64,000 nt of DNA from Microbacterium sp. (GCA_029239635.1 JARBUN010000013.1:12667-76666); one strand, 5' to 3'. Positions 5,985 through 22,193 are shown, counted from the stretch's first letter. Translations and numbers: made by a program. The notes: generated by a model not told the origin, from the sequence alone.

Positions 5985-7228
5985 GGTGTCTCCTCCGTGA
6001 CCTTCATGGGCTGTAGCGCCCGCTCGAGCGGAAGAGTCATGATGGTTCGCCATTTTCCTTCGCTCATTCCGCTGGTGACCGATCCCCCGAAGACCTCGCT
6101 GCGCGCGCGCATCGCCTCGAGGCCCGTCGTCGTCGACGAGAGGGGGCTCGTGGATGCGGGCGCATCGACCGTGCTGACGATCACCGCGTCGGACCCGACG
6201 GTCATCGTCATCTCCACGGGCTGCGAGGGATCCGCGTGCTTGAGCACGTTCGTGCCCAGCTCGCGGATCGTGCGCCGCAGGGCCTGTCGCAGGCTCGCGG
6301 GGACACGGGCGAGTTCGCCTTCGAGGGTGAACACGACGTCGAAGCCCGCGCGCTGCAGGGCGTCCGCCACCCCCTCGAGGTCATGCGCGAGGCCGACCGC
6401 GCTCGTCGTCTCCCCCGACAGTTCCGGGGAGCCGAGGAGGTCGGCCTCGTCAGAGGGGGCCGACTGGACGGCGTCGCTCTTGAGCAGCAGCACGAGACTG
6501 CGGAGGTCGGTCAGCGCCTGCTGGGCCGAGTCGCCGATCCCCTCGATGATCTGCGCCGTCTTGCTCGGGTCCTGGACGAGCTGCGCGCGACGCGCCTGCA
6601 TCGCGATGATCGTCACGTCGTGGGCGACGATGTCGTGCAGCTCGTACGCCAGCGTCATGCGCTCGTCGGCACGGATACGCGCCTGCTGTTCGCGGAGCGA
6701 ACGGATCTGAGCGGCGCTGCGATCGTTGCGTCGACCGTAGACGCCGAGGCCGAGTCCCGCGCCGGCCGCGACGATCATGATCAGGAGGACGACGAGAACG
6801 GTCGAGATGGTGAGCTCGGTCGGGTGGACGACCATGGACAGCGACATCAGGACGATGCTCGCGGGGGCGAAGACCAGAGCGACCCGGAGGGGGAGCATCA
6901 TCGCGCACAAGCCCAGCGTGATGGCCGTGGGGAACGTCATCTGCGCGATCTGATACTCGGTGCCCACGGTGGCGAGCGCGGCGAGCAGGCCGACGATCGC
7001 GAGCAGTAGCGTCACGGCGGCCGGCACCGCACCGACGAGCAGGGCGAGAAGTGGCAGACAGGGGACGACGAGGAACACCCAGCCGATGGGTGTCGCGAGG
7101 TCCAGCTCTCCCGCGCTGATGTCGACGGCGATCAGCGCAGCCGTCACCGCGATGAGCAGAACGCGGGCGATCCACTTTCCGGGCAGGGGCTTGACCTCGG
7201 TGAACCACGGGGGTGGACGTCCTACCAC
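5981..7228 (-). CDS. Membrane sensor histidine kinase (HisKA_3)
   Basis: ~5 TM helices, ERMTLAYELHDIVAH H-box, ELGTNVLKHA N-box, GLEAMRAR; start approximate. Confidence 0.92.
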   Translation of the reverse strand: MVGRPPPWFTEVKPLPGKWIARVLLIAVTAALIAVDISAGELDLATPIGWVFLVVPCLPLLALLVGAVPAAVTLLLAIVGLLAALATVGTEYQIAQMTFPTAITLGLCAMMLPLRVALVFAPASIVLMSLSMVVHPTELTISTVLVVLLIMIVAAGAGLGLGVYGRRNDRSAAQIRSLREQQARIRADERMTLAYELHDIVAHDVTIIAMQARRAQLVQDPSKTAQIIEGIGDSAQQALTDLRSLVLLLKSDAVQSAPSDEADLLGSPELSGETTSAVGLAHDLEGVADALQRAGFDVVFTLEGELARVPASLRQALRRTIRELGTNVLKHADPSQPVEMTMTVGSDAVIVSTVDAPASTSPLSSTTTGLEAMRARSEVFGGSVTSGMSEGKWRTIMTLPLERALQPMKVTEETP

Positions 7229-7600: not shown

Positions 7601-9559
7601 ATGAGCGCGACCATCGTCACCCCGGCACCGGTCCGGCGCGAAACCCTCGACGCAGCGGACCGCGCTCGGCCTTTCCTCCGCCGGGACACCTTCTACGCCG
7701 AAGCGGACGACGGAGTCCAGTTCGCCTCCGCTGGGCCGGCCTTCCACCTGAGCGGACGCGGTTCCTTCCCGGTCTTCGAGCGGATCGCGCCGTTCCTCGA
7801 CGGTCAGGTGTCCCGCGCGGAGTTGCGCGCAGCTCTCGGCCCCGTGCACTGGCCGGTCGTCGAGCGGATCCTCGGCCATCTCGCCGAGCGCGGCTTCCTC
7901 CGCTGGATCGCCCAGGAGGACGTCGACACGGTCGGGGAGGACGACCGCACCGCCTACGCCGAGCAGATCGCGTTCCTCGCGCAGTACACCGACACCCCCC
8001 ACGCTTCGTTCGCGATGTTCCGCGATGCGCCCGTCTCTCTCGTCGGGCAGTGCCCGCTCGGTGACGCCGTCGTCCAGAACCTCGCGGCGAACGGGCACCG
8101 CGACCTGACCGTCGTCGACACGTCCGAAGCGGGCCCGCTCTCGGACGATGCCCGTGACGCGGTCCACCTGCTGATCCTGCCCACGGCCGAGGCCTACGCG
8201 TGGTTCGCGCGGCATCGGGGGCAGCTGGATCCCGCGCGGTGCCTGCTCGTCCTCCCCGTCGGCGACCGGCTGTGGGTCCTGCCCCACGCGTGGCGTGCGG
8301 ACGCCCACGCCGCGCCGGACTGGAAGGATGCCGTCATCGCGCTCGAGGGGGCCGGGGTCGCCCCCGCCCTCGAAACGCTGTTCGCCGCGGCGGAGGAAGG
8401 CCTCACCCCGCTGCAGGGTCGCGCCGCATCGGTGCAGGTCCAGCGGATGCTGGGTGCTCTGCTCTCGTACGAGATCTTCAAGGGTCTCACCGGGGCTCTC
8501 GCCCCCGAGACCGAGGCAGGTGCCATCTCGCTCGACGCGACCACCGGCGAGACCGTGGCGCACCGCATTCTTCCCAGCACGCAGCGCAGCCGCGTGACGT
8601 CCGCACCCGCGTCCTCCCCGACGAAGAAGGCCACGAGCCTCACACCCGACGACTCTCGACCGGACGATTACGGACGGTGGGAGCGTCTCGTCGGTTCCCT
8701 CACCATGCCGATCACGGGGTTCGCGGACGAGCACCTGATCCAGCTCCCCCTGAAGGTCGCCGTCGCGACGACGAGCGAGGGCGCCGCGGTCCGGGCACCG
8801 AGCCTCTGGACCCTCGCCGACGCGCGGAGCGAGGCGATCGCCCGCGTGTACGAGGAGCTCGTCGCGAGCCTCGAACCGCCCCGTCCGCTCCTGCCGTTCA
8901 CGTCGTTCGACGGCGAGAGGGCCGAAATCGACGCGGCGCGGATCTTCCGCCGTTCTCGCGCGAATGCGGCCGGGCGCTATGAGCGTTCCGCCGCCGCGGT
9001 CGGTGTCGCCCTCACCGAGGGGGATGCCGTGCTCCGGGCGCTCTTCAAGGCGGCCACCGAGCACCTCCTGCTGCAGCACGTGTCCGAGCCCGCCGGGGCC
9101 GTGCTGTCCGCCGCTCCCGAAGGCACCGTCCTCACCTTCCTCGCCGATGCCTCCGCCGGCTCGGGCGACCTCGGGTACATCGCCCTCGGGTCGCTCGCCG
9201 TCGCCGGGACGACGCTCGAGGTCCACGTGGTGATCGCGACGCTCGCCGTGGACGACCGCCTGCTGTGGCACGTCGCGGCCGGAGACAGCGCCGCAGCCGC
9301 CGCCGCCACCGCGGCGACCGAGGTGATCGCCCTCGGCCAGTACGACGATGCGGGGGCGAGGACACCGTCGATGGAGATCTGGCCCGGCATCGACCCTCGC
9401 GCCCTCGTCGCCGCGGAGACCCCGGAAACCGCGGAGACCGCGGAGACCGCGGAAGCCGTGACGCGCACGACGCGGGCACGGGTGGTCGCCGCGTCCCTTC
9501 GCGCCCCCGTGCTCACCGCCGCCGACCTCCACGCCGCCGCCGCGGTCGTGCTCGGATGA
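7601..9559 (+). CDS. TOMM/ocin-ThiF-like leader-peptide-binding protein (RRE plus E1-like plus degenerate YcaO-like region)
   Basis: RPFLRRDTFY...PFLDGQ RRE; YAEQIAFLAQY; SYEIFKGLTG; ERLVGSLT...QLPLKV docking-like segment. Confidence 0.8.
   Translation: MSATIVTPAPVRRETLDAADRARPFLRRDTFYAEADDGVQFASAGPAFHLSGRGSFPVFERIAPFLDGQVSRAELRAALGPVHWPVVERILGHLAERGFLRWIAQEDVDTVGEDDRTAYAEQIAFLAQYTDTPHASFAMFRDAPVSLVGQCPLGDAVVQNLAANGHRDLTVVDTSEAGPLSDDARDAVHLLILPTAEAYAWFARHRGQLDPARCLLVLPVGDRLWVLPHAWRADAHAAPDWKDAVIALEGAGVAPALETLFAAAEEGLTPLQGRAASVQVQRMLGALLSYEIFKGLTGALAPETEAGAISLDATTGETVAHRILPSTQRSRVTSAPASSPTKKATSLTPDDSRPDDYGRWERLVGSLTMPITGFADEHLIQLPLKVAVATTSEGAAVRAPSLWTLADARSEAIARVYEELVASLEPPRPLLPFTSFDGERAEIDAARIFRRSRANAAGRYERSAAAVGVALTEGDAVLRALFKAATEHLLLQHVSEPAGAVLSAAPEGTVLTFLADASAGSGDLGYIALGSLAVAGTTLEVHVVIATLAVDDRLLWHVAAGDSAAAAAATAATEVIALGQYDDAGARTPSMEIWPGIDPRALVAAETPETAETAETAEAVTRTTRARVVAASLRAPVLTAADLHAAAAVVLG
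9412..9457 (+). repeat. In-frame 9-bp tandem repeat encoding (AET)n
   Basis: GCGGAGACC-like units give AAETPETAETAETAEA. Confidence 0.7.
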
Positions 9560-11199
9560 CGGGACGGACCGTGAAGCTGCTGACATCCGACCGCTACGTG
9601 CTCGCCCCCGCGCCGCACCACTGCACCGAGTGCGCCCGCAAGCGCCTCGGCGACATGGATGACTTCCAGCTCCGCAGTCCCGCGGACCGGCGCCGATCGG
9701 TGAGCGCCGCCGCGACGAACCCCTTCCTCTCGATCTTCGTCGACGCTTTCGTCCCGGATCTCACGACCGTCGACGAGCGTTACACGGCCATCGGCGTGCA
9801 CGATCTGCGCGTGCACCACGGTGAGGTCGTGGACGCGGCGCACTGTCCGCACGCCCGCGCCTCGGTCGTCGTGCCGCGGGAGCGCGGCGACGGGTACCGC
9901 CCCTATCCGCTCGCGGGATATTTCGCGACGGCCCCGGAGGCGCCCGAGCTGTGCAACCCGGTGACGGGGGTCCTGTCGGCTCACGCGACGGACGACGTCG
10001 CTTCGCTCGTGACCGCGAAGGTCTCGGGGTTCACGATGTCGCACGGCGAGCACGGCCCCTACGTCCGCGCGTGGGGCGGGCACTGCGAGAGCTATGCACG
10101 ATCGCGGTGGGTCGGGCTGGTCGAGGGCATCGAGCGCATCTGCTGCGCCGAGCCGTCTCCGGCGGACCTGTGGGGCGCGGTCCCCGAGGGCGTGCGCGAG
10201 ATCGGGCTGGACGAGTTCGGAGTGGATGCCGCGTCCTGGCGGATCCCCCACCCCGTCGTCGGCACGTGGACCCTCGGCCGGGACCTGGTCACGGGAGAAC
10301 CCGTCGCCCTACCGACACGGACCGTCTTCTACGAGGCACCGATCGCCGATCCGGTCTACGTCCAGGACTCGTCCAGCGGGTGCGCGGCCGGAGGCAGCGA
10401 CGCCGAAGCCACGCTGTTCGGTCTGCTCGAAGTCGTCGAACGCGATGCCTTCCTCCTTGCCTGGTACGGCGACCTCCCGCTCCGGGAGATCCGCACCGAC
10501 AGCATCCGCGACGAGGAGTCCCGCCATTACCTGCAGCGGCTGAGACTCGTCGGACGCACCGTGCGCTTCCTCGACGCGACGGTCGGGGTCGGCATCCCGA
10601 CCGTCGTCGCGGTGTGCGACACGGCATCCGGGGGCGTCTGCCTGGGCGCGGGGTCGCACCCCGACCCGGAACGCGCGCTGAAATCGGCGCTCGTCGAAGT
10701 GGCATCCGATTTCCAGGTCATCGAGACCCGCGTTCATCAGCGACGCAACGAGCTCGAGGACATGCTGCGGGACCCCGACGGCGTCCGCGGCGTCGAAGAC
10801 CACGCCGACCTGTACGGGCTGCCCGGCGCCCGCGAATGGCTGACCACGTGGGCGCACACTCCGACCCCCGTATCGACGCAGGTCGCGCTCGCGGAGCTGC
10901 GTCGGAACGCCGCCGCGGGCGCCGGCGTCGAGACGGACCTGGATCTCGTCGTCGAAGCGATCGCCGCCGCGGGGTTCTCGCCCCTCGTCGTCGACGTCGG
11001 CTCGAGCCTGTCCCGCCGCTACGGGTTCAGCTGCGTCAAGGCGGTCGTCCCGGGCCTGCTGCCCATCGATTTCGGGTGGTCGAACCAGCGCGCGCTGCGC
11101 ATGCCGCGCCTCCGCGAGCAGAGCGAGCGCTGGCTACGGCAGCACGGCGGTGCCGACGAGACCTTCCTGCCGCACCAGCGCCCCCACCCGTTTCCTTGA
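9556..11199 (+). CDS. YcaO cyclodehydratase (azoline-forming)
   Basis: N-terminal CTEC, VEGIERIC, SSGCAAG...LLEVVERDAFL ATP-binding motifs, C-terminal PHPFP; ATGA overlap. Confidence 0.92.
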   Translation: MTGRTVKLLTSDRYVLAPAPHHCTECARKRLGDMDDFQLRSPADRRRSVSAAATNPFLSIFVDAFVPDLTTVDERYTAIGVHDLRVHHGEVVDAAHCPHARASVVVPRERGDGYRPYPLAGYFATAPEAPELCNPVTGVLSAHATDDVASLVTAKVSGFTMSHGEHGPYVRAWGGHCESYARSRWVGLVEGIERICCAEPSPADLWGAVPEGVREIGLDEFGVDAASWRIPHPVVGTWTLGRDLVTGEPVALPTRTVFYEAPIADPVYVQDSSSGCAAGGSDAEATLFGLLEVVERDAFLLAWYGDLPLREIRTDSIRDEESRHYLQRLRLVGRTVRFLDATVGVGIPTVVAVCDTASGGVCLGAGSHPDPERALKSALVEVASDFQVIETRVHQRRNELEDMLRDPDGVRGVEDHADLYGLPGAREWLTTWAHTPTPVSTQVALAELRRNAAAGAGVETDLDLVVEAIAAAGFSPLVVDVGSSLSRRYGFSCVKAVVPGLLPIDFGWSNQRALRMPRLREQSERWLRQHGGADETFLPHQRPHPFP

Positions 11200-11214: not shown

Positions 11215-12747
11215 ATGTCGATTCACGCTTGGCCCGGCGTCCTCCCGGGGACGGCAGCCGTCCGTTACGCGCACCTCATCCTCGATCGCGTGCGGGACGG
11301 GATGCCGAACGACGACTGGAAGGTCGACTGGACGAACGCCCCCCTCACGGTGGCCGACTACCGAGACGCGCCGCTGCGCCTCATGGATGCCGACGAGTCG
11401 ACCGACGTCGACGGAGCCGCGCCCCGTGCTCTCAGCCGCACGATCGCCGCGGTCTGTCTGAGCGCCTACGGCATCACGGGTCCGCGACTCAACGTCAACC
11501 TCAACGACCGCCCCGAGGTCCACGCGCGGGTCGCGAACGTCAAGTGGGGACGCGGAGCCGCATCGGGCGGGGGCCGTTACGGCATCGACCTCTATCTCGT
11601 CCACGGCGGAGACGACGCACTGGACGCGGGTGTCTATCACTTCAGCGTGATCGCCAACGGGTGGGAGCAGCTGCAGCGCCACGACCGCACCCGCGAGGTC
11701 CGCGGCATCCAGAGCTACGTCCGCGAGGCGCGGTCGTACCTCGTGGCGACCGTCAACTTCTGGCGCTCGGCGTTCAAGTACAGCGATTTGGCCTACCAAG
11801 CGACGGCGATGGACGTCGGAACGTTCTTCGGTGCGCAGTGGGAGACCCTCGGCGACGACGTCGCGGGCACGTGGGACATGGAGGTCGACGAGACGGGTCT
11901 CGCCGCCCTGCTCGGCATCGATCCCCGGGATCAGGGCGTGTACGCCGTGCAAGCGTGGGGGCCGATCCCGGCAGGAGCGGCGCGCGAGGTCGTCGTGCCG
12001 GCGCCTCCGCCGGTCGCGGCGTTCCGTCGCGACCGCGCGGTCGTCCGCTTCCCCACCGCGACCGCTCTCCAGGACGACATGCGCCGGGAGAGCCCGGATG
12101 TGTCGGCACGGACGAAGCTCGCGATCGTCCCCGACACCACCGTCCCCGACGACGCGGGCCGCCGTCGCCTCGCCGCCCGGGAGACGAGCTTCGGTCGCTT
12201 CAGCGGAGAGTCCATCACCGAGGACGCGCTCGACCGGATCGTCGCTCGCGGCCGATCCGCCGCCCACGCCCTCACCGGCGGGGCTCCCCACGCGCCCGCG
12301 CTCTCGTTCCTCATCTACGCCCACCGGGTCGAGGGGCTCGAACCGGCCTTGTACCTCGACGACGAAGAGGGGCGTCGTCGCCTCGACGACGGCGATCAGT
12401 CGTCGTTCCTCGAGAGCACGTACTTCCTGCACAACTACATGGGGCGGCGCGCCGCGTGCACTCTCATCGTGTGTGCCGCCGTGATCGACGCCGCTCGCAC
12501 GCGCGGCGTGCGTGGATACCGCGTGACGAACGCGGTCGTCGGCGCCGCGTGCCAGGCGCTGCTCACCGACGCGAACGCCGTCGGAGTCGCCACGGGCACC
12601 GCCCTCGGATTCGACGCCGCCGCCCACGCGCGGCACGCCGGGATCGATCCACGGGAGAGCACCCCGATGCTCATGATCATGCTGGGGGTCGACACCCCGG
12701 GCTCGGGACGCGTGCGCGCCGACATGACGGCCGAGGTGGCGTCGTGA
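11215..12747 (+). CDS. SagB-type FMN-dependent azoline dehydrogenase (tandem nitroreductase domains)
   Basis: RGAASGGGRY, GVYHF, FWRSAFKYSDLAY; second domain RETSFGRF...RGYRV...TALGFD. Confidence 0.9.
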   Translation: MSIHAWPGVLPGTAAVRYAHLILDRVRDGMPNDDWKVDWTNAPLTVADYRDAPLRLMDADESTDVDGAAPRALSRTIAAVCLSAYGITGPRLNVNLNDRPEVHARVANVKWGRGAASGGGRYGIDLYLVHGGDDALDAGVYHFSVIANGWEQLQRHDRTREVRGIQSYVREARSYLVATVNFWRSAFKYSDLAYQATAMDVGTFFGAQWETLGDDVAGTWDMEVDETGLAALLGIDPRDQGVYAVQAWGPIPAGAAREVVVPAPPPVAAFRRDRAVVRFPTATALQDDMRRESPDVSARTKLAIVPDTTVPDDAGRRRLAARETSFGRFSGESITEDALDRIVARGRSAAHALTGGAPHAPALSFLIYAHRVEGLEPALYLDDEEGRRRLDDGDQSSFLESTYFLHNYMGRRAACTLIVCAAVIDAARTRGVRGYRVTNAVVGAACQALLTDANAVGVATGTALGFDAAAHARHAGIDPRESTPMLMIMLGVDTPGSGRVRADMTAEVAS

Positions 12748-15410
12748 GCGCGGCCGTGGACGCTCGGTGGCAGCTGAGATTCGGGGGGTTGCCGGCATCC
12801 GTCGTCCGCGAGCTGGAAGACCCGGCGCACCGCGACAGCTTCGGAGCCTTCTGGGATGCCTCTCGGCACCTGTCCGCGGCGAAGCAGGCCGTGAGCGACG
12901 CCCTGCACGGCCTCATCTCCGCGCGGCGGGAGGCGGGGGCGGAGACCGCGACGCTCGTCGCCCTCCGTCGCGCCCTGTTCAAGCAGGACGCCGACGCGGT
13001 CGAGCGTCGCCTCGCGGCCCTCACCCCGCTCGAGCGAGACGGCGTGCTCGACCGCCTCGGGGAGCATGCGGAGCCGCTGCGGGCATGGCTGGCGCACGAG
13101 CGCCGGCACCGCGAGGACTTCGACGAGATGCTCGCCGGGCAGCGCACACGGCTCTGGGAACAGGTGGCGCAGCACGGCTTCCTTCCGGGTCTCGCCCTCT
13201 CGGCCCCCGACCTCGTCGCCGAGGTCGACCGGTACGGCCGGGAGCTCGCGGCGCAGGGACGGGTCGACAAGCGGGGCAAGCGCGTCGAACGCTCGCTCGT
13301 GTCGTACGTGACCCGAGCGGCGGCGAAGACGACGCCGTTCTCCTCCCTCGGTCCTGTCGCCTTTCCCGGTGCGACACCGCGCTCGAGCGCCGAGGAGGGC
13401 CGCTTCGCGCGCTCCCGCTGGTCGGTGTATCCGCTCGCCCGCGTGCTGTCGGCGATCGCCGAGGACGCGGACCTCGTCGCGGGAGTCTCACTCCGCCGCA
13501 GCCCGTACGTCCGGCGACAGGATGCCGCGACCCTCGTCGACCGTGCGACCTGGACGTTCTCCGAGGTCGACACCCGCGACGACTACGCGGCGTGCGTCGA
13601 ATCCCGCGTGCGCCTTCCCGCGGAGGGCGTCCTCGCCGCGGTCGACGAGATCATGGACCGGCTCGGGGACGACACGACGTGGGGTGCGCTGACGGACGAG
13701 CTCGTCGACTCGGCGGGTCTCGACCATGACCGCGCCTCGGACCTCGTCGCCAGCCTCGTTCGGCTCGGCGTCCTCGTCGCCCCCGCACTGACGATCGACG
13801 CGTTCGACGCGGACGCCTTCGACACCACTCTGGAGCAGATCGCCGGCGGCGGCTCGCGCGCCGAAGAGATCGCCGTCGCTCTGCGCCGCTATCGGGACGA
13901 CGCCGCCGCCACGGTCGACGTCGTCGATCCCCGCGAGCGCGCCGCGCACGTCCAACGGCTCCGCGGGCTGGTCGCGGACATCTACGCCACCGCGGGAATC
14001 ATCGCCGAGCCGCCGCGATCGGTCGTCTACGAAGACGTCGTCTTCCCCGCGTCCGGCTCGAGTCTCGCGGAGCCGCTGGCGACCTCGGCATCCGGTGCCG
14101 ATGCTCTTCTGGCCTTCGTCGATCTGCTCGACACGAGTCACGTGAAGCGCGATCTCCTCACCGGCTATTACCGCCACCTCCGCGAGGCCGGAGAGGAAGT
14201 CGACGATGTCGCCGCGTTCCTGCGAGGTTTCGACGTCGACCTGCTCGAGTCGTTCGAGGGCTACGTCCTCTCCGACATCGCCGACGACGAGCTCGAGACC
14301 GACCCGTGGCTCCGCTGGGGCGGCGCGTGGCGACGCGAAGCGGCCCGCCGTGAGCTGCTGTCGGTCCTCCTCCGCCACCAGCGCGCCGTCCCCTTCGACG
14401 GCATCGACATCGCGGCCGAACTGGACGCGCCGCCGGTCGACCTCGAGGCGGAGGCGCGCCGGATCTCCGCGACGACCTCGCGTCTGACGGCGCCGTTCCG
14501 TCACCTCAATCTCCTCCTCCAGCACGACGTCGCGTCGGGGGTCACCGTGATGAACGACTGCTTCGGCGGGGTCGGCTTCTCGGTCTCCCGCTTCTCCCAC
14601 GTCATGTCCGAGCCGGCGTCGGAACTCACCGACGACGTCGAACGGGCCGCCGAGACCGCGGGCGTGCGGCTCGTGGAGATCAGCGGCGGAACCGTCTTCT
14701 CGAATCTGAACCTGCACGCCCCCGTACTGCTCGTCCGCTTGGCGGTGCCGGGCGACCCGGTGCGACCGGGAGACTCCGGCATCCGGCTCGACGACCTCGC
14801 GGTGCGATGGTCGGACGCCCACGAGCGGGTCATGCTCGTCGAACGGGCCACGGGGATGATCGTCCACCCGGAGTACGCGGGCTACCTGGTGCCGGCGGCG
14901 ACGCCTCGCCTGCATCAGTCGCTGTCCCTGCTGACCCCCTCGGCGAGCCTGAGCTCGAAGCCCGCGGATCTGCTGCGGGTCGTCCCGGAGGCCGGCACGG
15001 TCGTCGTGCGCCGCCGCATGAGCATCGGCGACGTCGTCGTGGTGCGCGCGGCCGCCCTCCTCCGCGGCTCCGACGTGCCGACACACGATCCGCTCACGCG
15101 CGAGGGAAACCTCGCGTGGCAGCGCTTCTGGGCGCGCCACGCGCTTCCGCCCCGCGCGTACGTGCGCGTGCTCCACGGGACTCCCGGTCGACGGGCGAAG
15201 CCGTTCTTCCTCGACGTGACGCTCGCGCTGTGCCTGTCGAACCTGCACAGCCAGATGAGGGATGCCGAGGACCAGACGGTCCTCGAGATCACCGAGGCGC
15301 TGCCCGACCCCCACGGCGCGGCCGAACGAGGCGACGGATCCCCCCGTGTCGCCGAGGCGATGGCGGGCGTCAGCATCATCGACCGATCGACCTGGAAGGA
15401 AAGCGTATGA
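12744..15410 (+). CDS. LanB-type dehydratase, glutamylation domain (split LanB)
   Basis: YVTRAAAKTTPFSSLG, VYED, FSRF-like, NLNLH, KPFFLD and EALPDP motifs; GTGA overlap; 888 aa. Confidence 0.9.
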   Translation: MSAAVDARWQLRFGGLPASVVRELEDPAHRDSFGAFWDASRHLSAAKQAVSDALHGLISARREAGAETATLVALRRALFKQDADAVERRLAALTPLERDGVLDRLGEHAEPLRAWLAHERRHREDFDEMLAGQRTRLWEQVAQHGFLPGLALSAPDLVAEVDRYGRELAAQGRVDKRGKRVERSLVSYVTRAAAKTTPFSSLGPVAFPGATPRSSAEEGRFARSRWSVYPLARVLSAIAEDADLVAGVSLRRSPYVRRQDAATLVDRATWTFSEVDTRDDYAACVESRVRLPAEGVLAAVDEIMDRLGDDTTWGALTDELVDSAGLDHDRASDLVASLVRLGVLVAPALTIDAFDADAFDTTLEQIAGGGSRAEEIAVALRRYRDDAAATVDVVDPRERAAHVQRLRGLVADIYATAGIIAEPPRSVVYEDVVFPASGSSLAEPLATSASGADALLAFVDLLDTSHVKRDLLTGYYRHLREAGEEVDDVAAFLRGFDVDLLESFEGYVLSDIADDELETDPWLRWGGAWRREAARRELLSVLLRHQRAVPFDGIDIAAELDAPPVDLEAEARRISATTSRLTAPFRHLNLLLQHDVASGVTVMNDCFGGVGFSVSRFSHVMSEPASELTDDVERAAETAGVRLVEISGGTVFSNLNLHAPVLLVRLAVPGDPVRPGDSGIRLDDLAVRWSDAHERVMLVERATGMIVHPEYAGYLVPAATPRLHQSLSLLTPSASLSSKPADLLRVVPEAGTVVVRRRMSIGDVVVVRAAALLRGSDVPTHDPLTREGNLAWQRFWARHALPPRAYVRVLHGTPGRRAKPFFLDVTLALCLSNLHSQMRDAEDQTVLEITEALPDPHGAAERGDGSPRVAEAMAGVSIIDRSTWKESV

Positions 15411-16468
15411 GCGCCGTGATCCCCCTCCCCCACAGCCCCGGGGCGACCCGCGTGGACGACGAGGACGCACGCTGGGTGTCCTTCCACGTCTTCTACGGCG
15501 GTTCTCCCGACATCCTGCTGACCGAGTGTCTGATCCCCCTCGCCGACGCGCTCGTGCGCGACGGGGTCGTCCGCGACTGGTTCTACATCAACTACTGGCT
15601 CGAGGGCAGCCATGTCCGGCTGCGGCTGCGCGTTCCTCGCGAACGCACCGACGCCGCTCTCGACAGCCTCGTGCTCCCCGCCGTCGAGAGCTATCTCGCG
15701 CGCAAACCCTCGATGCATCCGATGCTCGAGCTCGCCGACAACGGCTTCTACGAGCGACTCTTCGTCGGGGAGTTCACGGATGCCGATCGCCCGCGCCACT
15801 TCGACGACGACGGCGTCCCGCTCTTCCGGCCCAACAACTCGATCGAGCGGCGCGACTACGAACGGGAGACCTTCCGCTACGGCGGCCCGGAGTGCATGAT
15901 GCTCGCGGAGGAGCACTTCGTCGCCTCGACGCGCCTCGCGTGCGACGTGATGGGCGGAGGGAACCAGAACGTCCGGAGCCTCCTGCTGGGCATCGCCTCG
16001 CAGCTCAGCTTCGTGACCGCCTGCACGCTGCTGCGTGACCGCGATCTCGTCGCCGATTTCTTCGTCGCGTATCACCACCGATGGGCCTCCGGCTACGCCG
16101 AAGAGACCCCCTACGCCACCGAGAAGGGGCGCCGCACTCACGCCCTGACCGCCGTCAACCTCCGCCGCCGTCTCCTCCCGCTCCTCGACCGCCTCGTCGC
16201 CGACGACCTGGAGGGGATGCCGCAGCGGCTCCGCGACTGGGCGCAGACGAACCGCCGCGTGCGCGCGGGATTGGACGAGCTGTTCGACAGGGACGTCCTC
16301 CGCTTCGACTACCAGGACGGACGGCGGGCGCCGGAGTCGCCGTCGGCGGCGGCGTGGTCGCTGTGCCACTCGCTCATCCACATGACCAACAACCGCATGA
16401 TGGTGTCGGTCGCCGACGAGGCCTTCATCGCGTACCAGATCGCCGAAGCGATGGGGACGCCGGCATGA
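15407..16468 (+). CDS. Glutamate elimination protein (Lant_dehydr_C / thiopeptide-type biosynthesis protein)
   Basis: WVSFHVFY, WFYINYWLEGSHVRLR, YERETFRYGG, HMTNNRM...DEAFIAY. Confidence 0.9.
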   Translation: MSAVIPLPHSPGATRVDDEDARWVSFHVFYGGSPDILLTECLIPLADALVRDGVVRDWFYINYWLEGSHVRLRLRVPRERTDAALDSLVLPAVESYLARKPSMHPMLELADNGFYERLFVGEFTDADRPRHFDDDGVPLFRPNNSIERRDYERETFRYGGPECMMLAEEHFVASTRLACDVMGGGNQNVRSLLLGIASQLSFVTACTLLRDRDLVADFFVAYHHRWASGYAEETPYATEKGRRTHALTAVNLRRRLLPLLDRLVADDLEGMPQRLRDWAQTNRRVRAGLDELFDRDVLRFDYQDGRRAPESPSAAAWSLCHSLIHMTNNRMMVSVADEAFIAYQIAEAMGTPA

Positions 16469-17580
16469 GCGGCGAGACGCCCACGCCGGTGCTGCCCGAC
16501 ACCGCCCCGTGGCGCCCCCTGGTCGCCCCGGGCGTGCAGGTGGGTCCGGCCCGGTGGAACGGCGAGCAGCTGAAGAGCGACGCGTCCGTCGCCGGGCAGA
16601 ACCGCATCCTGCGTCTCGGTCTGCGGGAGCGACTGATCCTCGACGCGATCGACGGGCGGCGGACGGTGGCGGAGATCCACACGTCCCTGACCGATCAGGG
16701 GCTCCCCGCTCCTGCCGAGGTCGTCGTGGCATCCCTGAACCGGTTCCTCGCCTTCGGACTCGTCGAGCGCCCGTTCACCGTGGCGGCCCCGACGATCGAG
16801 GCACTCGACACGCGAGCCGAGATCGCCGCCGAGAACCTTTCCGAGGTGTGGGCCACGGGAGCCCGTTCCGGTCGGGCGTCGCGGGTGCGGTCGGCGCTCG
16901 CGTCGTGGCCGTCGTTCGTCGTCGCACTCGTGATCGGCGCCGCCGCCACGGTCCTGGCCGCGACGGCATGGCCTGCCGCCGTGATCGCGGTGACGCACCT
17001 CACGAACCCTCTGTGGCTCGTGCCCGCCGCCGTGCTCGCGGTGGTCTGGAACCTCGGGGTCACCCTCGCGCACGAAGGGGCTCACATGAGCACCTTCCGC
17101 GCGCTCTCCGGGCGGAGCGCGCGCCTGTCGGTGACGCGCCTCGGCGTCGTCCCGATGATCAACACCCAGCTCGACGGTGTCGGTCTGCTCGATCCGGGGC
17201 GGAAGGTGCGCGTCGTCGCGAGCGGCCCGCTCGTCTCGCTGCTCGCGCTCCTCGTGCCGTGGACCGTCTTCGTCCTCGCCCCCGGGGGCAGCGTCCTCGA
17301 GCTCTTCGCCGCCGCGTCGCTCCTCCTCGACCTCGCGGTCGTCGGCCTCGCCCTGTCGTTCTTCCCCAACACCGACGGCAGTCGACTCCTCGAGGCGGTG
17401 GCATCCGTCGATCAGATCCAGGCTGTCGCCTTCCGCACCATCTCCCGGCGCTACCGCCTGCCTCGCGCGCTCCCGCTGCTCACCCGCGTCGCGGTCCGCG
17501 TCTATCCAGTCTTGCTCTCAGCGACCGTCCTGGCGGTGCTGCTGGCGGGAGTGCTCGTCGTCCGGCTGGCACTGAGCTGA
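16465..17580 (+). CDS. RRE(PqqD-like)-M50 membrane metallopeptidase fusion
   Basis: N-terminal ILDAIDGRRTVAEI winged helix; TM helices with HEGAH, SGPLVS and FPNTDG site-2 protease motifs. Confidence 0.82.
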   Translation: MSGETPTPVLPDTAPWRPLVAPGVQVGPARWNGEQLKSDASVAGQNRILRLGLRERLILDAIDGRRTVAEIHTSLTDQGLPAPAEVVVASLNRFLAFGLVERPFTVAAPTIEALDTRAEIAAENLSEVWATGARSGRASRVRSALASWPSFVVALVIGAAATVLAATAWPAAVIAVTHLTNPLWLVPAAVLAVVWNLGVTLAHEGAHMSTFRALSGRSARLSVTRLGVVPMINTQLDGVGLLDPGRKVRVVASGPLVSLLALLVPWTVFVLAPGGSVLELFAAASLLLDLAVVGLALSFFPNTDGSRLLEAVASVDQIQAVAFRTISRRYRLPRALPLLTRVAVRVYPVLLSATVLAVLLAGVLVVRLALS

Positions 17581-17619
17581 GTCGCACCCGCGGCTCGGCA
17601 CACCTTCGAAAGGGAAATC

Positions 17620-17805
17620 ATGAACAACCTGTCATCGCTCGCCGTCGAACTGGACGCCTTCGAGGTCGACACCCTCGAGGTCAAGGACTACGTCGACTAC
17701 TCCGAAATGGCGTTCGGCTCCACGTGTTCGTCGTCCTCGTCGTCGTCCTGCTCGTCGACGTGCACCTCGTGCTGCACCTCGACGTCGTCGTGCGCCACGG
17801 CCTGA
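17620..17805 (+). CDS. RiPP precursor peptide 1 (acidic leader plus Ser/Thr/Cys core)
   Basis: Leader MNNLSSLAVELDAFEVDTLEVKDYVDYSEMAFG, core STCSSSSSSSCSSTCTSCCTSTSSCATA; GAAAGGG RBS. Confidence 0.95.
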   Translation: MNNLSSLAVELDAFEVDTLEVKDYVDYSEMAFGSTCSSSSSSSCSSTCTSCCTSTSSCATA

Positions 17806-17834
17806 CCCCGGGCTGATCCCCGCTTCACCCCACT

Positions 17835-17873
17835 TGCGGTGCTGGGGCGAGCATCCCTCGTCCCAGCACCGCA
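17835..17873 (+). other. 17-bp stem-loop after precursor 1 (mRNA stabiliser or leaky terminator)
   Basis: TGCGGTGCTGGGGCGAG-CATCC-CTCGTCCCAGCACCGCA; no U-tract. Confidence 0.7.
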
Positions 17874-17892
17874 TCACCTGAAGGAGAGCATC

Positions 17893-18807
17893 GTGAACCC
17901 ATCGGATCCGTGGGCGGTGGACGTCTCGGACGTCTCGCTGGCCATCCGCGGCAAGAACATCCTGTCCGGCGTCGACCTCAAGGTGGCCGCCGGCACCTTC
18001 CACGGCATCATCGGCCCCAACGGCGCGGGGAAGTCGACCCTGTTCGACGTCATCCTCGGATTCCGAGCCCCGACCTCGGGCAGCGTCCGCGTCCTCGGCA
18101 AGCCGACGCGTCCCCGCGATGTCGAGCTGTACCGCCAGGTCGGGGTGCAGCCGCAGCGGACGGCCTTCTTCCCCAAGCTGAACGCGCTGGAGCACCTCAC
18201 GGCGCTGGCCCACATCTACGGGATGGGCGCCTCGCGCATCACCACGCTCATGGAGGCCCTCGATCTCACGCGCCACGCCGCAACGCGCACCGAGAAGCTC
18301 TCCGGCGGCGAGCGCCAACGGCTCGCGATCGCCTCGGCGCTCGTCCATCAGCCGCGCGTCCTCTTCCTCGACGAGCCGACGGCCGGGCTCGACCCCACGG
18401 CGCGGCACAACCTCGTCGAGATGCTGCGCTCCGGGGAGTTCCGAGACATGACCACCATCTACACGACGCACTACCTCGAAGAGGCCTCGCGCCTGTGCGA
18501 TGTCGTGTCGATCCTCGATCGCGGCCGGGTGCTCGTGACCAAGTCGCCCAACGAGCTCGTGTACGAGACGGGGAGCGAGACGTCCATCCTGCTGCCGGCC
18601 GCCGTGCACCAGGCCGACCTCGTCGCTCGGCTCGACGCGATCACGACGGTCGACGTCGATTCGGCGGGGCTGCGCGTGCGCACGCGCGAGGTCGGACGCG
18701 CCTTCGAAGCCCTCGCGGCCGCGGGCATCGACATGACCAACTCGCAGGTCACGAGCGGGTCCCTCGAGGACGCGTTCATGGCATACACCGGACGGAGCTT
18801 CGAATGA
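17893..18807 (+). CDS. ABC exporter ATP-binding subunit
   Basis: GPNGAGKST, LSGGERQR, LFLDEPT, TTHYLEEA; GTG after AAGGAG. Confidence 0.95.
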   Translation: MNPSDPWAVDVSDVSLAIRGKNILSGVDLKVAAGTFHGIIGPNGAGKSTLFDVILGFRAPTSGSVRVLGKPTRPRDVELYRQVGVQPQRTAFFPKLNALEHLTALAHIYGMGASRITTLMEALDLTRHAATRTEKLSGGERQRLAIASALVHQPRVLFLDEPTAGLDPTARHNLVEMLRSGEFRDMTTIYTTHYLEEASRLCDVVSILDRGRVLVTKSPNELVYETGSETSILLPAAVHQADLVARLDAITTVDVDSAGLRVRTREVGRAFEALAAAGIDMTNSQVTSGSLEDAFMAYTGRSFE

Positions 18808-19550
18808 CCACGGCGACCACCACGCTCTCGCGTGTCATGTTCAAGGCGGATCTCCGCGATTTCGCCACCCTGTTCTTCACCTTCGTGTTCCCGGCGGGCC
18901 TTCTCGTCGGCCTCGTCCTCGGGATGGGACAGATCCCCTCGCCGCACGGTGGCGACTCGGTCAACGAGATCTCGTCGAACGTGGTCGCCTTCGGCATCGC
19001 GTTCGTCGCGGTCTTCGCGGGTGCTCAGCACATCTCGGCGTGGCGCGAGAACGGCATGCTCAACGTGCTGCGATCCGCTCCGGTCGGGTCGGGGCACGTC
19101 CTCGCGGCGCAAGCGGCCGTCGGGGCCATCCTCGCCATCGTCCAGGCCGTGTTCCTCATCGTGATCGCGGTCACTCCCTGGCTGGGGATGCAGCTCGTCC
19201 CGACGGCACCGCTCGGCATCCTCGGAGTCGCCCTCGGTTACTTCTTCTTCTTCGGCCTCGGCGTGATCCTCGCCAATCTCGTCCCCTCGATGACGGCCGT
19301 CACGATGCTCTCGTTGATCGTCGTGATCGGGCTCGGACTCGTGGGCGGAGCGATGATGCCCGTCGAGTATCTGCCGACATGGGTTCAGGACATCGCCCCC
19401 TACACCCCGGTCTTCCACATCAGAGAGGTGCTCACCTTCCTCCTCGTCGGCGTCGGCGACTGGGGCCAGGTCGGAATCTCCAGCGCGTACCTCCTCGTCA
19501 TCGGTGCAGGGCTCTTCCTCGTCGCCCGCAAGACGATGCGTCTGAGCTGA
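18804..19550 (+). CDS. ABC-2 type exporter permease
   Basis: Six hydrophobic segments; WRENGML and LPTWVQDIAPYTP motifs; ATGA overlap. Confidence 0.9.
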   Translation: MTTATTTLSRVMFKADLRDFATLFFTFVFPAGLLVGLVLGMGQIPSPHGGDSVNEISSNVVAFGIAFVAVFAGAQHISAWRENGMLNVLRSAPVGSGHVLAAQAAVGAILAIVQAVFLIVIAVTPWLGMQLVPTAPLGILGVALGYFFFFGLGVILANLVPSMTAVTMLSLIVVIGLGLVGGAMMPVEYLPTWVQDIAPYTPVFHIREVLTFLLVGVGDWGQVGISSAYLLVIGAGLFLVARKTMRLS

Positions 19551-19554
19551 TCCC

Positions 19555-21261
19555 ATGATCGGTCTCGCGCACAGCGCCCCGTCGCGCGACAGCGCCGCGG
19601 TCTGGACCGCGCCGGCAACCGTCGTCGTCGGCGCGGGAGGCATGACCCACGCCGAGCGGGACGCCGTGATCGCCGACCGGTGGTTCCGGGCACGGCCCCA
19701 TGTGCAAGCGCAGGTGGTGTCGCGGTCCGGTGTGCGCAGGGTCGGCGGGCCGGAGGACGGCGAGCTGCTCGGTCGGATCGTGCGCTCTCTCCGTGACTTC
19801 GCGTCGGCCGGTGCGGCCGAGGCGACGAACGTGTGGGAGGTCGACCAGCGTTCGGGACTCATCCGGCACACCGAGTTGATCGAGATCGCGACACCGAGCA
19901 GCGGGTCCGCGGCGCAAGCCCCCCGAGTGGATGCCGTCTCCCTGCGCGAGCGCGATCTCGCCGGCTGGGAGTGGGAGTCGGCGGGTCTCATCGACCCGAT
20001 CGCCGCCCTCCTCGCCCCCGAGGTGACGGATGCCGTGGCGTGCCCGACCCTCGCGCCCGCCTCGGGCGCGACAGCCACCCGGACGCGTGACAGCGCCCGA
20101 CGCCTCACGTGGTCGGGGCAGGGGGAATCGTTCGCGGGTTCTCGGCGCTCCGCCGTCGTCGAGGGAATCGAACGGCTGGTCGGCGGGCAGCAGTTCACCC
20201 CGCGGCATCCGCTGAGGTCGGCGCGGTCGCTCGAGGGGCGTGTGCTGACGCCCCGGGCGTTCGACCCCTACCTCGACGCGGCCTACGGGCACCTCGTCGA
20301 ACGCTTCGACGCCGAGACGCCGCACGAGTGGGTGCCGGGCTCCTCGTTGCGCGACGACGCGCACGTCTGGATTCCTCGCGAACTCGTCTACTACGCCGAG
20401 ATCCCCGAGAACGGACGATGGGCTCTGGGGACGTCCTCGGGGTGCGCGACGGGCAGTTCCCTCGATGAGGCGACGGTCTTCGGTCTGCTCGAGCTCATCG
20501 AGAGAGACACCTTCGTCAACGCCTGGTACGGCGGTATCGATGCCGTGCCGGCCCTGACCGAGGGGTTTCCCGGTGCCGCCGGGATGCTCGCCCGTGTGCG
20601 CCTGCTCGGCTGGCGGATGGAGCTCGGACTCCTGCGCAACGCCTGGAACATCCCCGTCTTCGTCGCCGCCGTCGACACGGGCGAGGTCCGCGCTTTCGGC
20701 GCCGCCGCCCATCTCGACGTCGCGACCGCCGGTCTGCGCGCGATGACCGAAGCGGTCGCCTACGCCCCCGGACGCATCTTAGAAGTCGCCGACAACGCCC
20801 ACAGGGTCGACGAGCTTCGCCGCGACCCGCGCCGCGCGCGGCACATCGAAGACCACCCGTTGCTTCCCGTGCGGGGCGCGCATCCGGCCTACGCCACGAT
20901 GTGCGGGGATCCGCGAGAGGCTCTGCCGCTCGACGAGATCTCTTCGTTCGCGGATGCCGGGACCCGTCTCTTCCGCGAAGGCGACAGCCGTGCGGGGGTC
21001 GACATCCGCGGCATCCGGTCGGCTCTCGTCCGACTCCTCGCCGATGAGGGGATCGAGACCTTCCGGGTCGTCCAGAGCGCCCCCTTCGAGAAGCAGCTCG
21101 GCCTGGAGACGGTGATGACACTCGCCCCCGCCCTGTCGCAACTCGACTTCGGGTGGGAGGCGCAACGCGTCCGCACCTCGACGCGGCCCCTCGACCAGGC
21201 CCGACTGCTCACCGGCCGCCGCCCGTCCGCGCTCCGCGACCTGCCGCACCCGTTCTCATGA
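19555..21261 (+). CDS. Second YcaO-family protein
   Basis: VEGIERL, TSSGCATG...LLELIERDTFVNAWY, LDFGW, C-terminal PHPFS. Confidence 0.9.
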   Translation: MIGLAHSAPSRDSAAVWTAPATVVVGAGGMTHAERDAVIADRWFRARPHVQAQVVSRSGVRRVGGPEDGELLGRIVRSLRDFASAGAAEATNVWEVDQRSGLIRHTELIEIATPSSGSAAQAPRVDAVSLRERDLAGWEWESAGLIDPIAALLAPEVTDAVACPTLAPASGATATRTRDSARRLTWSGQGESFAGSRRSAVVEGIERLVGGQQFTPRHPLRSARSLEGRVLTPRAFDPYLDAAYGHLVERFDAETPHEWVPGSSLRDDAHVWIPRELVYYAEIPENGRWALGTSSGCATGSSLDEATVFGLLELIERDTFVNAWYGGIDAVPALTEGFPGAAGMLARVRLLGWRMELGLLRNAWNIPVFVAAVDTGEVRAFGAAAHLDVATAGLRAMTEAVAYAPGRILEVADNAHRVDELRRDPRRARHIEDHPLLPVRGAHPAYATMCGDPREALPLDEISSFADAGTRLFREGDSRAGVDIRGIRSALVRLLADEGIETFRVVQSAPFEKQLGLETVMTLAPALSQLDFGWEAQRVRTSTRPLDQARLLTGRRPSALRDLPHPFS

Positions 21262-21854
21262 CCCGTTCCCCCGCCTCAGGCCCGGTGCGGAAAGCGCACG
21301 GGACGACCGTCTCGCTTCTGGCATTCGCCGCGCTGTACGTCGTCGCCCTCGCGTGGGCGCCCACCTGGTGGTGGGCGACGGGTGCCGCGGTGCTCGGGGC
21401 CGGGATCGCCCTGGGGGCGTGGTGCCTCGCGCGCCGAGCGCGGCACCCGGCTCGACAGCCGGGTGCCCGCGCGCTCCGGGCTGTCGCCCTGACGTCGTTC
21501 ACCGAAGCCGTCGGACTCACCGCCGCCGTGGCGACGTTCCTGGTCGCCGACCTCCGCTGGCTCGCCCTCCCCCTTCTCCTGACGACGGTGACGGTGCACG
21601 TGGCGAGCCTCGCGGTGGCCTTCCGCCGAGCCGCCGACGCGTGGGCTCTCGGGTGGATCGTGGTGGCGACGGTGATCGCGTGGAGCTGCGGACCGGATGG
21701 AACGGCCTGGGCCTGGCCCGTGTCCGGCGCGCTCGCCGCGGGCATGTGCGTCGGGTACGTCCTCGCCCTCCATTCGGCTCGACGATCGGGTCGCGTGCGC
21801 GCCGACTCGTCGCCTGACGTGTCGGTTCGCGAATCGGCATCCCCTGCGACGTGA
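21258..21854 (+). CDS. Membrane protein of unknown function (possible immunity protein)
   Basis: ~6 TM segments; ATGA-coupled to the second YcaO. Confidence 0.7.
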   Translation: MTRSPASGPVRKAHGTTVSLLAFAALYVVALAWAPTWWWATGAAVLGAGIALGAWCLARRARHPARQPGARALRAVALTSFTEAVGLTAAVATFLVADLRWLALPLLLTTVTVHVASLAVAFRRAADAWALGWIVVATVIAWSCGPDGTAWAWPVSGALAAGMCVGYVLALHSARRSGRVRADSSPDVSVRESASPAT

Positions 21855-21889
21855 CCACGCTCGCAGACCATCCCTGAAAGGAAGACGCA

Positions 21890-22072
21890 ATGAAACTCGC
21901 ATCCCTCGCCGCCGAACTGGACGCCTTCGAGGTCGAGACCCTCGAGGTCAAGGACTTCGTCGACTACTCCGACATGGCCTTCGGCTCGACGTGTTCCTCG
22001 TCGTCGTCGTCCTCGTGCACATCGACGTGCGCCTCGACGTGCGCTTCGACCTCCTCGTGCGCCACGGCGTGA
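21890..22072 (+). CDS. RiPP precursor peptide 2
   Basis: Leader MKLASLAAELDAFEVETLEVKDFVDYSDMAFG, core STCSSSSSSSCTSTCASTCASTSSCATA; paralog of precursor 1; GAAAGGA RBS. Confidence 0.95.
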   Translation: MKLASLAAELDAFEVETLEVKDFVDYSDMAFGSTCSSSSSSSCTSTCASTCASTSSCATA

Positions 22073-22109
22073 TGCCCGCGCGCTGGTGATGTCCGAGCGC
22101 TGACGATCT

Positions 22110-22156: not shown

Positions 22157-22193
22157 GTGGGCGGATGTGGATATCAGGCGACCGTGCGCTCCG

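What the first reader, a model, noticed from the sequence alone, without database searches (positions are those of the whole stretch)
17620..22072. Two paralogous precursors with 28-aa cores made almost entirely of Ser/Thr/Cys
Seen: after a conserved AFG, core 1 is STCSSSSSSSCSSTCTSCCTSTSSCATA (14 Ser, 6 Thr, 6 Cys, 2 Ala) and core 2 is STCSSSSSSSCTSTCASTCASTSSCATA. They differ at 4 positions (12, 16, 18, 20) and conserve the Ser7 run and Cys 3/11/15/19/25. The leaders share ELDAFEVxTLEVKDxVDYSxMAFG. Established: thiopeptide cores are usually well under 20 aa. Inference: nearly every residue can be cyclised or dehydrated, giving a rigid, almost fully conjugated backbone. The products may be congeners or a two-component pair. 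The AFG|S cleavage site is inferred.
Basis: partly seen in the sequence, partly recalled or inferred. Interest (0 to 1): 0.8.

Follow-up and report, generated by a model that had tools for sequence, protein, structure and literature searches.

The report
Linear azole-dehydroalanine peptides, not thiopeptides
Two near-identical small genes encode 28-residue Ser/Thr/Cys-rich peptides in a cluster that has azole-forming and dehydrating enzymes but no ring-closing enzyme, so the products are likely heavily modified linear peptides of the goadsporin type rather than the giant thiopeptide antibiotics their database label suggests.

Summary
They lie in a RiPP cluster with a ThiF-like partner, two YcaOs, a dehydrogenase, a TbtB-like glutamylase, one PF14028 protein, an RRE-fused M50-like peptidase and an ABC exporter. 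The PF14028 protein is an elimination enzyme, not a pyridine synthase: it has His325/Arg73 like 29 of 29 control elimination proteins, whereas 30 of 30 control pyridine synthases have Tyr there. No pyridine synthase was found in the cluster or the 85%-complete genome. The thiopeptide yardstick therefore fails; the likely product is a linear azole/dehydroamino-acid peptide, a class with 28-30-residue members already known (spongiicolazolicins, nostatin A, carnazolamide). Relatives have 17-33-residue cores built by Ser-run and four-residue-repeat indels, with one to five precursors per locus. The two copies differ only at naturally variable sites, so congeners are more likely than a two-component pair. 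Near-complete modification and cleavage at AFG|S are untested. A sister family occurs in 80 of 401 Streptomyces genomes. Verdict: new variant of a known kind.

The parts
17620..17805 (+). Precursor A1, 61 aa: 33-aa leader ending AFG and 28-aa Ser/Thr/Cys block (17719-17802)
   Evidence: NF033400 50.1 bits and TIGR03892 33.1 bits, both over cut-off
21890..22072 (+). Precursor A2, 60 aa: 32-aa leader and 28-aa block (21986-22069)
   Evidence: NF033400 39.7 bits and TIGR03892 35.1 bits
7601..9559 (+). Ocin-ThiF-like partner protein, 652 aa (likely leader-binding partner of the YcaOs)
   Evidence: TIGR03693 E=1.2e-9, far below its cut-off; conserved at the head of related clusters
9556..11199 (+). 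YcaO 1, 547 aa, ends in PHPFP (likely cyclodehydratase)
   Evidence: PF02624 194 bits; TIGR03604 207.8 bits, below cut-off 219; alignment
11215..12747 (+). SagB-like flavin dehydrogenase, 510 aa (likely azoline to azole)
   Evidence: TIGR03605 E=3.7e-17, below cut-off; PF00881
12744..15410 (+). TbtB/GodF-like glutamylation enzyme of a split LanB, 888 aa
   Evidence: the protein alone hits nothing; the family profile hits 6ec7 (TbtB by recall) at E=1.5e-60 and goadsporin protein 9jhq at 1.8e-32; 9 of 10 aligned members hit PF04738, the window's own being the miss
15407..16468 (+). Glutamate-elimination enzyme of the split LanB, 353 aa; not a pyridine synthase
   Evidence: PF14028 136.5 bits; Arg73, Arg157, His325 align with NisB Arg786, Arg826, His961; motif table; profile scores; tree
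16465..17580 (+). RRE-like domain fused to an M50-like membrane metallopeptidase, 371 aa (likely leader peptidase)
   Evidence: His203-Glu204-x-x-His207 and Asp304 invariant in 8 of 8; 5 of 8 members hit NF041824, the window's own does not; weak profile match to site-2 protease MJ0392, E=0.03; weak fold matches to SpoIVFB, S2P and RREs, none at E<=0.001
17893..18807 (+). ABC transporter ATPase
   Evidence: PF00005; start chosen
18804..19550 (+). ABC-2 permease
   Evidence: PF01061, PF12698
19555..21261 (+). YcaO 2, 568 aa, ends in PHPFS (likely second cyclodehydratase)
   Evidence: PF02624 183 bits; best solved relatives TruD E=4e-16 and LynD 2e-15, against MJ1094 3e-7; alignment; tree
21258..21854 (+). 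198-aa membrane protein of no known family (possible immunity or export accessory)
   Evidence: no Pfam or NCBIfam family; nearest Atlas clusters are unnamed actinobacterial proteins at 0.93-0.94; present in several related loci
5301..7228 (-). Divergently oriented two-component system: LuxR-type regulator 5301-6053 and HisKA_3 kinase 5981-7228 (possible cluster regulator)
   Evidence: a regulator and kinase also flank the Actinomyces oris cluster

Best explanation
The two genes encode precursors that are likely converted into linear azole/dehydroamino-acid peptides of the goadsporin/spongiicolazolicin type, as two congeners of one pathway. Inferred steps: the ThiF-like partner binds the acidic leader; the two YcaOs cyclise all Cys and some Ser/Thr, possibly dividing the work by residue type; the dehydrogenase oxidises the rings to thiazoles and (methyl)oxazoles; the split LanB glutamylates and eliminates further Ser/Thr to Dha/Dhb; the RRE-fused M50-like peptidase cuts the leader at the membrane at or a few residues before FG|S; the ABC-2 transporter exports the product. 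No pyridine macrocycle forms. The core is modular: a fixed head (STC plus a Ser run), a variable number of four-residue x-S-(T/C)-C units and a fixed tail. The x positions and position 23 tolerate Ala/Gly and are probably left unmodified. A rough guess is 12-20 modified residues of 28. Most likely role, with low confidence: a secreted competition or signalling molecule acting on neighbouring Gram-positive bacteria. Shown: gene content, motifs, conservation, core variation. Inferred: all chemistry, the cut site and the role.
For: One PF14028 protein in the own genome and one per cluster in 10 of 10 related genomes; extra matches in 3 of them lie elsewhere. At the column of His325: His in 22 of 22 family rows and 29 of 29 partner elimination proteins, Tyr in 30 of 30 pyridine-synthase rows. 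Arg73: 22 of 22, 29 of 29, against 4 of 30. A profile from those 30 synthases finds only this protein in the own genome, at 47 bits against 162 for the elimination profile. The tree separates the 30 synthases from the other 51 rows, the window protein among them, with support 100. NF045556 score 85 against cut-off 325. A peptidase-like gene is conserved directly after the elimination gene, and pyridine synthases eject the leader themselves (PMC7210931). Cores span 17-33 residues, 30 distinct among 96 records, with Ser runs of 3-9 and repeat indels, which fits a linear product better than a fixed ring; natural thiopeptide rings span 26-35 atoms. One to five precursors per locus. Azole plus split-LanB chemistry without a ring is the goadsporin/spongiicolazolicin route (PMC10676384; PMC5303826).
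Against: The predicted fold of the 353-aa protein is closer to pyridine synthases (TbtD Z 26.8, 303 aligned, rmsd 3.3) than to LanB elimination domains (Z 19-20, 222-258 aligned), and TbtD is also the best sequence hit among solved structures; no stand-alone elimination protein appears among those hits to compare with. The genome is 85% complete. The peptidase assignment rests on motifs and weak matches. The role of the second YcaO is unknown, and its last residue is Ser instead of Pro in all 8 members of this clade. No product of this clade was found in print, and spongiicolazolicins showed no antibacterial activity (PMC8838263), so the proposed role is weak.
Confidence: 0.72

Rival explanations
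1. Linear backbone chemistry as above, but the second YcaO adds a different modification after leader removal, such as an amidine ring at the new N-terminus or a macroamidine (klebsazolicin- or bottromycin-like, recalled), so the product is capped or cyclic without a pyridine.
For: Two YcaOs are kept in 17 of 22 family rows; the other five are three truncated loci and two divergent clusters. YcaO 2 is on a long branch in this clade and ends in Ser, not Pro. The N-terminal STC is kept in 27 of 30 cores.
Against: YcaO 2's best solved relatives are azoline-forming TruD and LynD. It keeps the PHPF tail, and its Streptomyces counterparts end in PHPFP and keep an N-terminal CxxC region. No amidohydrolase or TfuA-like gene was seen among the cluster ORFs scanned.
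Confidence: 0.13
2. The products are thiopeptides with an unusually large ring (for example Ser1 to Ser24, about 68 atoms): the single PF14028 protein does both elimination and cycloaddition, or a pyridine synthase is supplied from elsewhere.
For: Precursors pass the 'thiazolylpeptide' models. The fold is nearest TbtD/PbtD. The tail S-S-C-A-T-A is nearly fixed (29 of 30 cores end in it or a close variant). Engineered 62- and 68-membered rings exist.
Against: The SxH motif and Tyr of pyridine synthases are missing in 22 of 22 family rows. No synthase in the own genome or in the related clusters. Core length varies from 17 to 33. A peptidase-like gene is present.
Confidence: 0.05
3. A1 and A2 form an obligate two-component pair whose products act synergistically.
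For: Both are conserved unchanged in M. testaceum NS220 and in metagenome loci L053 and L055, and a second copy in the same position occurs in L052 and L057. A2-like cores with Thr18 and Ala20 recur (P0004, P0006).
Against: The cores are 24 of 28 identical and differ at family-variable sites. L003, L006 and L010 run about 5 kb past YcaO 2 and show one precursor; others carry three to five.
Confidence: 0.06
4. Only part of the Ser/Thr/Cys block survives: the mature product is trimmed to a shorter core, or the cluster is silent in this strain.
For: Shorter natural cores of 17-22 residues exist in the same family.
Against: All cluster genes are intact and 86-100% identical in M. testaceum NS220. 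The 28-mer is invariant at 19 of 28 positions among 11 distinct 28-mers from several genera.
Confidence: 0.04

Closest known systems
Spongiicolazolicins A/B (Streptomyces sp. CWH03)
   Same: Linear azole-containing RiPPs of 29 and 28 residues (PMC8838263 passages), grouped with goadsporin as azole plus dehydro peptides made with a split LanB (PMC10676384). The Streptomyces sister precursors found here have 60 of 71 Cys on one three-residue register, which fits the tripeptide blocks reported for spongiicolazolicin B (PMC11583998). One sister precursor (P0253) carries accessions AWK12401.1 and GBQ02825.1, which I recall as S. spongiicola; no call confirms this.
   Different: The primary paper was not held, so the identity of its precursor is unverified. 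The window clade has a Ser run and four-residue units instead of a three-residue register, and its Ser/Thr/Cys block is 28 residues against 21-22. If spongiicolazolicins come from the sister family, their cut lies 7-8 residues before the block.
Goadsporin (god cluster)
   Same: YcaO, flavin dehydrogenase and split LanB with no pyridine synthase (PMC5303826 passages); the glutamylase profile matches the goadsporin protein 9jhq at E=1.8e-32.
   Different: Goadsporin has a 19-residue core with 6 azoles and 2 Dha, one YcaO, a peptidase-ABC transporter (GodB) and an N-acetyltransferase (GodH). Here: 28 residues, two YcaOs, a ThiF-like partner, an RRE-M50-like peptidase, and no acetyltransferase among the scanned ORFs.
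Thiopeptides (thiomuracin, lactazole, cyclothiazomycin and berninamycin types)
   Same: ThiF-like partner, YcaO, dehydrogenase, TbtB-like and TbtC-like genes; acidic leader passing TIGR03892 and NF033400.
   Different: No pyridine synthase, the class-defining enzyme; 29 of the 30 control loci carry two PF14028-like proteins (the other ends near a contig edge), family loci carry one.
Dehydrazoles (carnazolamide) and nostatin A
   Same: 30-residue linear cores with many azoles and dehydro residues: 8 azoles plus 8 Dha from 20 Ser/Thr/Cys in carnazolamide; Dha-azole-X triplets in nostatin A.
   Different: They use a LanM-type dehydratase and a long nitrile-hydratase-like leader; this cluster uses a tRNA-dependent split LanB and a 32-33-residue leader.
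Daptide and epipeptide intramembrane peptidases (M50)
   Same: HExxH membrane peptidase in a RiPP cluster; 5 of 8 family members hit NF041824; M50 enzymes are known in pearlin and epipeptide maturation (PMC10885120 passages).
   Different: All scores are far below the cut-off of 300, the window's own protein does not hit the model, and the rest of the pathway is unrelated.

Membership tests
Thiopeptide | YcaO cyclodehydratase plus flavin dehydrogenase | tested here: met
Thiopeptide | Split LanB: glutamylation and elimination proteins | tested here: met
Thiopeptide | Pyridine synthase ([4+2] cyclase) | tested here: not met
   NF045556 85 bits against 325; His where 30 of 30 controls have Tyr; no second candidate in the 85%-complete genome; tree
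Thiopeptide | Six-membered nitrogen heterocycle closing a macrocycle in the product | not testable with these tools
   needs the isolated compound
Goadsporin-type linear azole/dehydro peptide | Azole-forming YcaO and dehydrogenase with split LanB and no pyridine synthase | tested here: met
   definition from PMC10676384 and PMC5303826
Goadsporin-type linear azole/dehydro peptide | Leader removed by a dedicated peptidase | tested here: inconclusive
   RRE-M50-like gene conserved, with HExxH and Asp304; only weak fold matches; activity untested; a different enzyme from GodB
Goadsporin-type linear azole/dehydro peptide | Linear mature product with azoles and Dha/Dhb | not testable with these tools
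   needs the isolated compound
Spongiicolazolicin family | Precursor and cluster homologous to the spo cluster | tested here: inconclusive
   primary paper not held; the link rests on recalled organism names for two accessions and on the three-residue Cys register
Dehydrazole | LanMbC (DUF4135) dehydratase and nitrile-hydratase-like leader | tested here: not met
   dehydratase is LanB-type; leaders are 32-33 aa; definition
Class I lanthipeptide | LanC cyclase in the cluster | tested here: not met
   no LanC hit among the cluster ORFs scanned against Pfam and NCBIfam
Two-component bacteriocin | Two distinct peptides, both kept and both needed | tested here: inconclusive
   cores 24 of 28 identical and single-precursor loci exist, which argues against; synergy itself is untested

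The most novel reading that the evidence does not exclude
The mature products are almost fully modified 28-mers: 20 or more of the 24-26 Ser/Thr/Cys become azoles or dehydro residues, with two YcaOs dividing Cys from Ser/Thr. That would give a near-continuous conjugated rod whose length nature tunes by adding four-residue units (17-33 residues), the densest azole/dehydro RiPP so far, from a pathway family routinely labelled as thiopeptide in soil, plant-associated and oral Actinobacteria.
Probability: 0.15. Interest if true: 0.7.

Novelty: new variant of a known kind. Interest (0 to 1): 0.42.

Why it matters
It corrects a label: a widespread cluster family whose precursors are named 'thiazolylpeptide-type bacteriocin' lacks the thiopeptide-defining enzyme. 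The sister form is in 80 of 401 Streptomyces genomes, and the long-core form is in Microbacterium, Arthrobacter, Corynebacterium, Brevibacterium and oral Actinomyces. The long-core clade is a natural test bed for a question the literature states as open, how YcaO and LanB enzymes share out Ser/Thr residues (PMC10676384): one enzyme set faces a seven-Ser run and repeat units, natural variants mark which positions tolerate Ala/Gly, and two congeners differ by a Cys/Thr swap. It is not categorically new, because 28-30-residue linear azole/dehydro peptides are known.

Tried and rejected
Dehydrazole: rejected, wrong dehydratase class. Giant thiopeptide: largely rejected although fold searches point to TbtD. 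The 888-aa protein alone gave no Pfam or PDB hit; only the family profile resolved it. Complex prediction of the peptidase's RRE-like domain with the leader gave no answer (score 0.02, mark 0.32), which is no evidence either way. Expression: no RNA holder is listed. Contigs of two runs from one study (X15, X17), only guessed to be RNA, cover both precursor genes; X19 has cover at both, and X16 and X18 show none over A1. Contig depth cannot rank genes, so expression is not shown. Promoter and terminator scan of 17400-22400: none found. Ten literature searches: five sequence motifs gave 0 papers; searches gave 0; searches gave only papers on other compounds or passing mentions. Papers not held: the spongiicolazolicin primary paper, the NisB structure paper, a YcaO review, the thiopeptide bioinformatics survey and two further ids. 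Supplement searches of PMC11583998 and PMC10676384 gave no spongiicolazolicin sequence; figures are not held. Earlier scan findings: nothing by sequence, words or relatives. The YcaO tree is the quick version and has no functionally labelled rows, so it cannot assign residue selectivity.
Full report
1. Observation. The two ORFs, their 28-residue tails, the composition and the four differences are exactly as described. They are the two most Ser/Thr/Cys-rich frame ends among 34,227 in the own genome, pass two curated precursor models, and match 100% in Microbacterium testaceum NS220, whose whole cluster is 86-100% identical. Near-identical DNA (share of words 0.89 or more) is held by 14 runs, 2 of which may be the source; those with a habitat label are soil, phyllosphere or plant metagenomes.

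2. Surroundings. From 7601 to 22072 on the + strand lie a ThiF-like partner, YcaO 1, a SagB-like dehydrogenase, an 888-aa protein, a 353-aa PF14028 protein, a 371-aa membrane protein, precursor A1, an ABC ATPase and permease, YcaO 2, a 198-aa membrane protein and precursor A2. A two-component system points the other way upstream. The 888-aa protein gave no hit alone, but its 10-member profile matches 6ec7 (TbtB by recall) at E=1.5e-60 and a goadsporin protein at 1.8e-32, and 9 of 10 members hit PF04738. It is the glutamylation half of a split LanB.

3. The deciding question. Thiopeptide clusters need two PF14028-type activities, elimination and pyridine synthesis (PMC9247985, parts 1-2 of 4 read). 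This genome has one such protein, and so does each cluster in 10 of 10 related genomes. Structure alone misleads: the model (pLDDT 85) is nearest TbtD, PbtD and TsrL (Z 23-27) and further from NisB, MibB and MadB (Z 19-20). I therefore built controls. NF045556 matched 122 of 401 Streptomyces genomes, 12 over the cut-off. I fetched all 13 over-cut-off places, 17 full-length sub-cut-off places, 9 family-like places and 1 place from the window's own family. Of the 30 control loci, 29 hold a second PF14028-like protein; the other ends near a contig edge. At the column of His325, all 30 synthase rows have Tyr, and all 29 partner rows and all 22 family rows have His; Arg73 is kept in 29 of 29 and 22 of 22 against 4 of 30. 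Arg157 is less clean: Arg or Lys in 22 of 22 family rows and 23 of 29 partner rows. The 17 sub-cut-off rows are labelled synthases by me, and two of the 22 family rows (L043, L044) are divergent clusters with a different or undetected precursor. Arg73, Arg157 and His325 align with NisB Arg786, Arg826 and His961; that these are the elimination residues, and that SxH and Tyr mark pyridine synthases, is recalled, since the NisB paper was not held. Profiles give 162 bits (elimination) against 47 (synthase), with no other hit in the genome, and the tree puts the protein on the elimination side with support 100. The cluster therefore cannot make a pyridine ring by the known route.

4. Leader removal. 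Pyridine synthases eject the leader themselves (PMC7210931 passages). Here the next gene encodes an RRE-like N-terminal domain and a membrane domain with invariant HExxH and Asp304 in 8 of 8. It aligns weakly with site-2 proteases, and 5 of 8 members hit the daptide intramembrane peptidase model below its cut-off. It is the likely leader peptidase; this is inferred. The cut site is open: Phe-Gly (once Phe-Ala) precedes the block in the clade's cores, while the residue before it is Ala, Val or Leu.

5. The family. Window-clade precursors give 30 distinct cores among 96 records, 17-33 residues long. A few irregular, truncated or frameshifted copies seen do not match the pattern and are not counted. 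Length changes come from the Ser run (3-9) and from gain or loss of four-residue units; Cys spacing of four is the commonest, 35 of 124. Among 11 distinct 28-mers, 19 positions are invariant; 16, 20 and 23 take Ala or Gly, 18 swaps Cys and Thr, 12 and 14 swap Ser and Thr. The two window copies differ at four of these variable sites. Loci carry one (L003, L006, L010), two (window, L002, L052), three to five (L078, L080, L084) or four precursors (Actinomyces oris). This points to congeners. The clade is patchy: 1 of 400 other genomes of the window's family. A sister clade with 21-22-residue blocks and the same enzyme genes is in 80 of 401 Streptomyces genomes at E<=1e-100 (a few of the weakest may be more distant clusters). 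Two YcaOs are kept in 17 of 22 family rows; both keep the motifs I recall as ATP-binding, and YcaO 2 is nearest TruD and LynD.

6. Mechanism. Inferred order, by analogy with goadsporin (PMC5303826 passages) and thiomuracin: azoles first, then glutamylation and elimination, then leader cleavage and export. Characterised analogues are dense but not complete: goadsporin has 8 modified residues of 19, carnazolamide 8 azoles and 8 Dha from 20 Ser/Thr/Cys, nostatin A an unmodified residue in every triplet. With Ala/Gly tolerated at three positions, 12-20 modifications is my guess; near-complete modification stays possible. The biological role is the weakest step: secreted competition or signalling, noting that spongiicolazolicins and carnazolamide showed no antibacterial activity.

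7. Comparison and novelty. It works like goadsporin and the spongiicolazolicins and fails the thiopeptide test on its defining enzyme. Whether the sister clade is the spongiicolazolicin cluster is unresolved: sizes of 29 and 28 residues, the three-residue Cys register and two accessions I recall as S. spongiicola hint so, but the paper was not held. No paper in the library holds any of five motifs from these precursors, and searches found no description of this clade; most subscription papers are outside the library. Papers seen: PMC10676384 parts 1-3 of 7 plus passages and a supplement search; PMC9247985 parts 1-2 of 4; passages only for PMC8838263, PMC10885120, PMC11583998 (plus supplement search), PMC7210931, PMC5303826, PMC8442711, PMC10118248 and PMC7616364. 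Figures and unheld supplements may bear on the spongiicolazolicin link.

8. Verdict. Real feature; new variant of a known kind; interest 0.42.

Noticed in passing
window 7393-7560 (+): A 55-aa ORF with a signal-peptide-like start and a Cys/aromatic C-terminus sits between the two-component system and the cluster; 95% identical in L002 and not found in other loci. It could be a secreted inducer peptide for the kinase.
   Followed up: partly
window 4107-4180 (+): tRNA-Arg. Listed DNA matches to genus relatives stop at about 4200-4250, just past it (160 weaker matches not listed), so the cluster may lie in a variable island next to the tRNA.
   Followed up: partly
L063-L077: Metagenome loci with a short 17-residue core lacking the usual tail (14 records) next to the ABC genes, with no match to the modifying enzymes in the stretches held: possibly a remnant or split cluster.
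   Followed up: no
L087, L088, L089, L104: Precursors with an expanded four-residue repeat, giving 31-33-residue cores.
   Followed up: partly
L078, L080, L081, L084, L106: Tandem arrays of three to five precursor variants; L106 is an Actinomyces oris plasmid record from the oral cavity with four. Some copies in L078 and L081 appear frameshifted.
   Followed up: partly
L010:1690-3345: In a Bifidobacteriaceae genome bin, YcaO 1 is inverted relative to the rest of the cluster.
   Followed up: no
L044: A related Streptomyces cluster with one YcaO, one elimination protein and a different Cys-rich precursor, also without a pyridine synthase.
   Followed up: no
window 22194-28360 (-): A C45-family peptidase/acyltransferase and an oligopeptide ABC importer follow the cluster on the opposite strand; no link to the cluster was tested.
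   Followed up: no
window 33000-49000: A lower-GC stretch (0.61-0.67 against about 0.71 in the cluster), possibly another acquired block.
   Followed up: no
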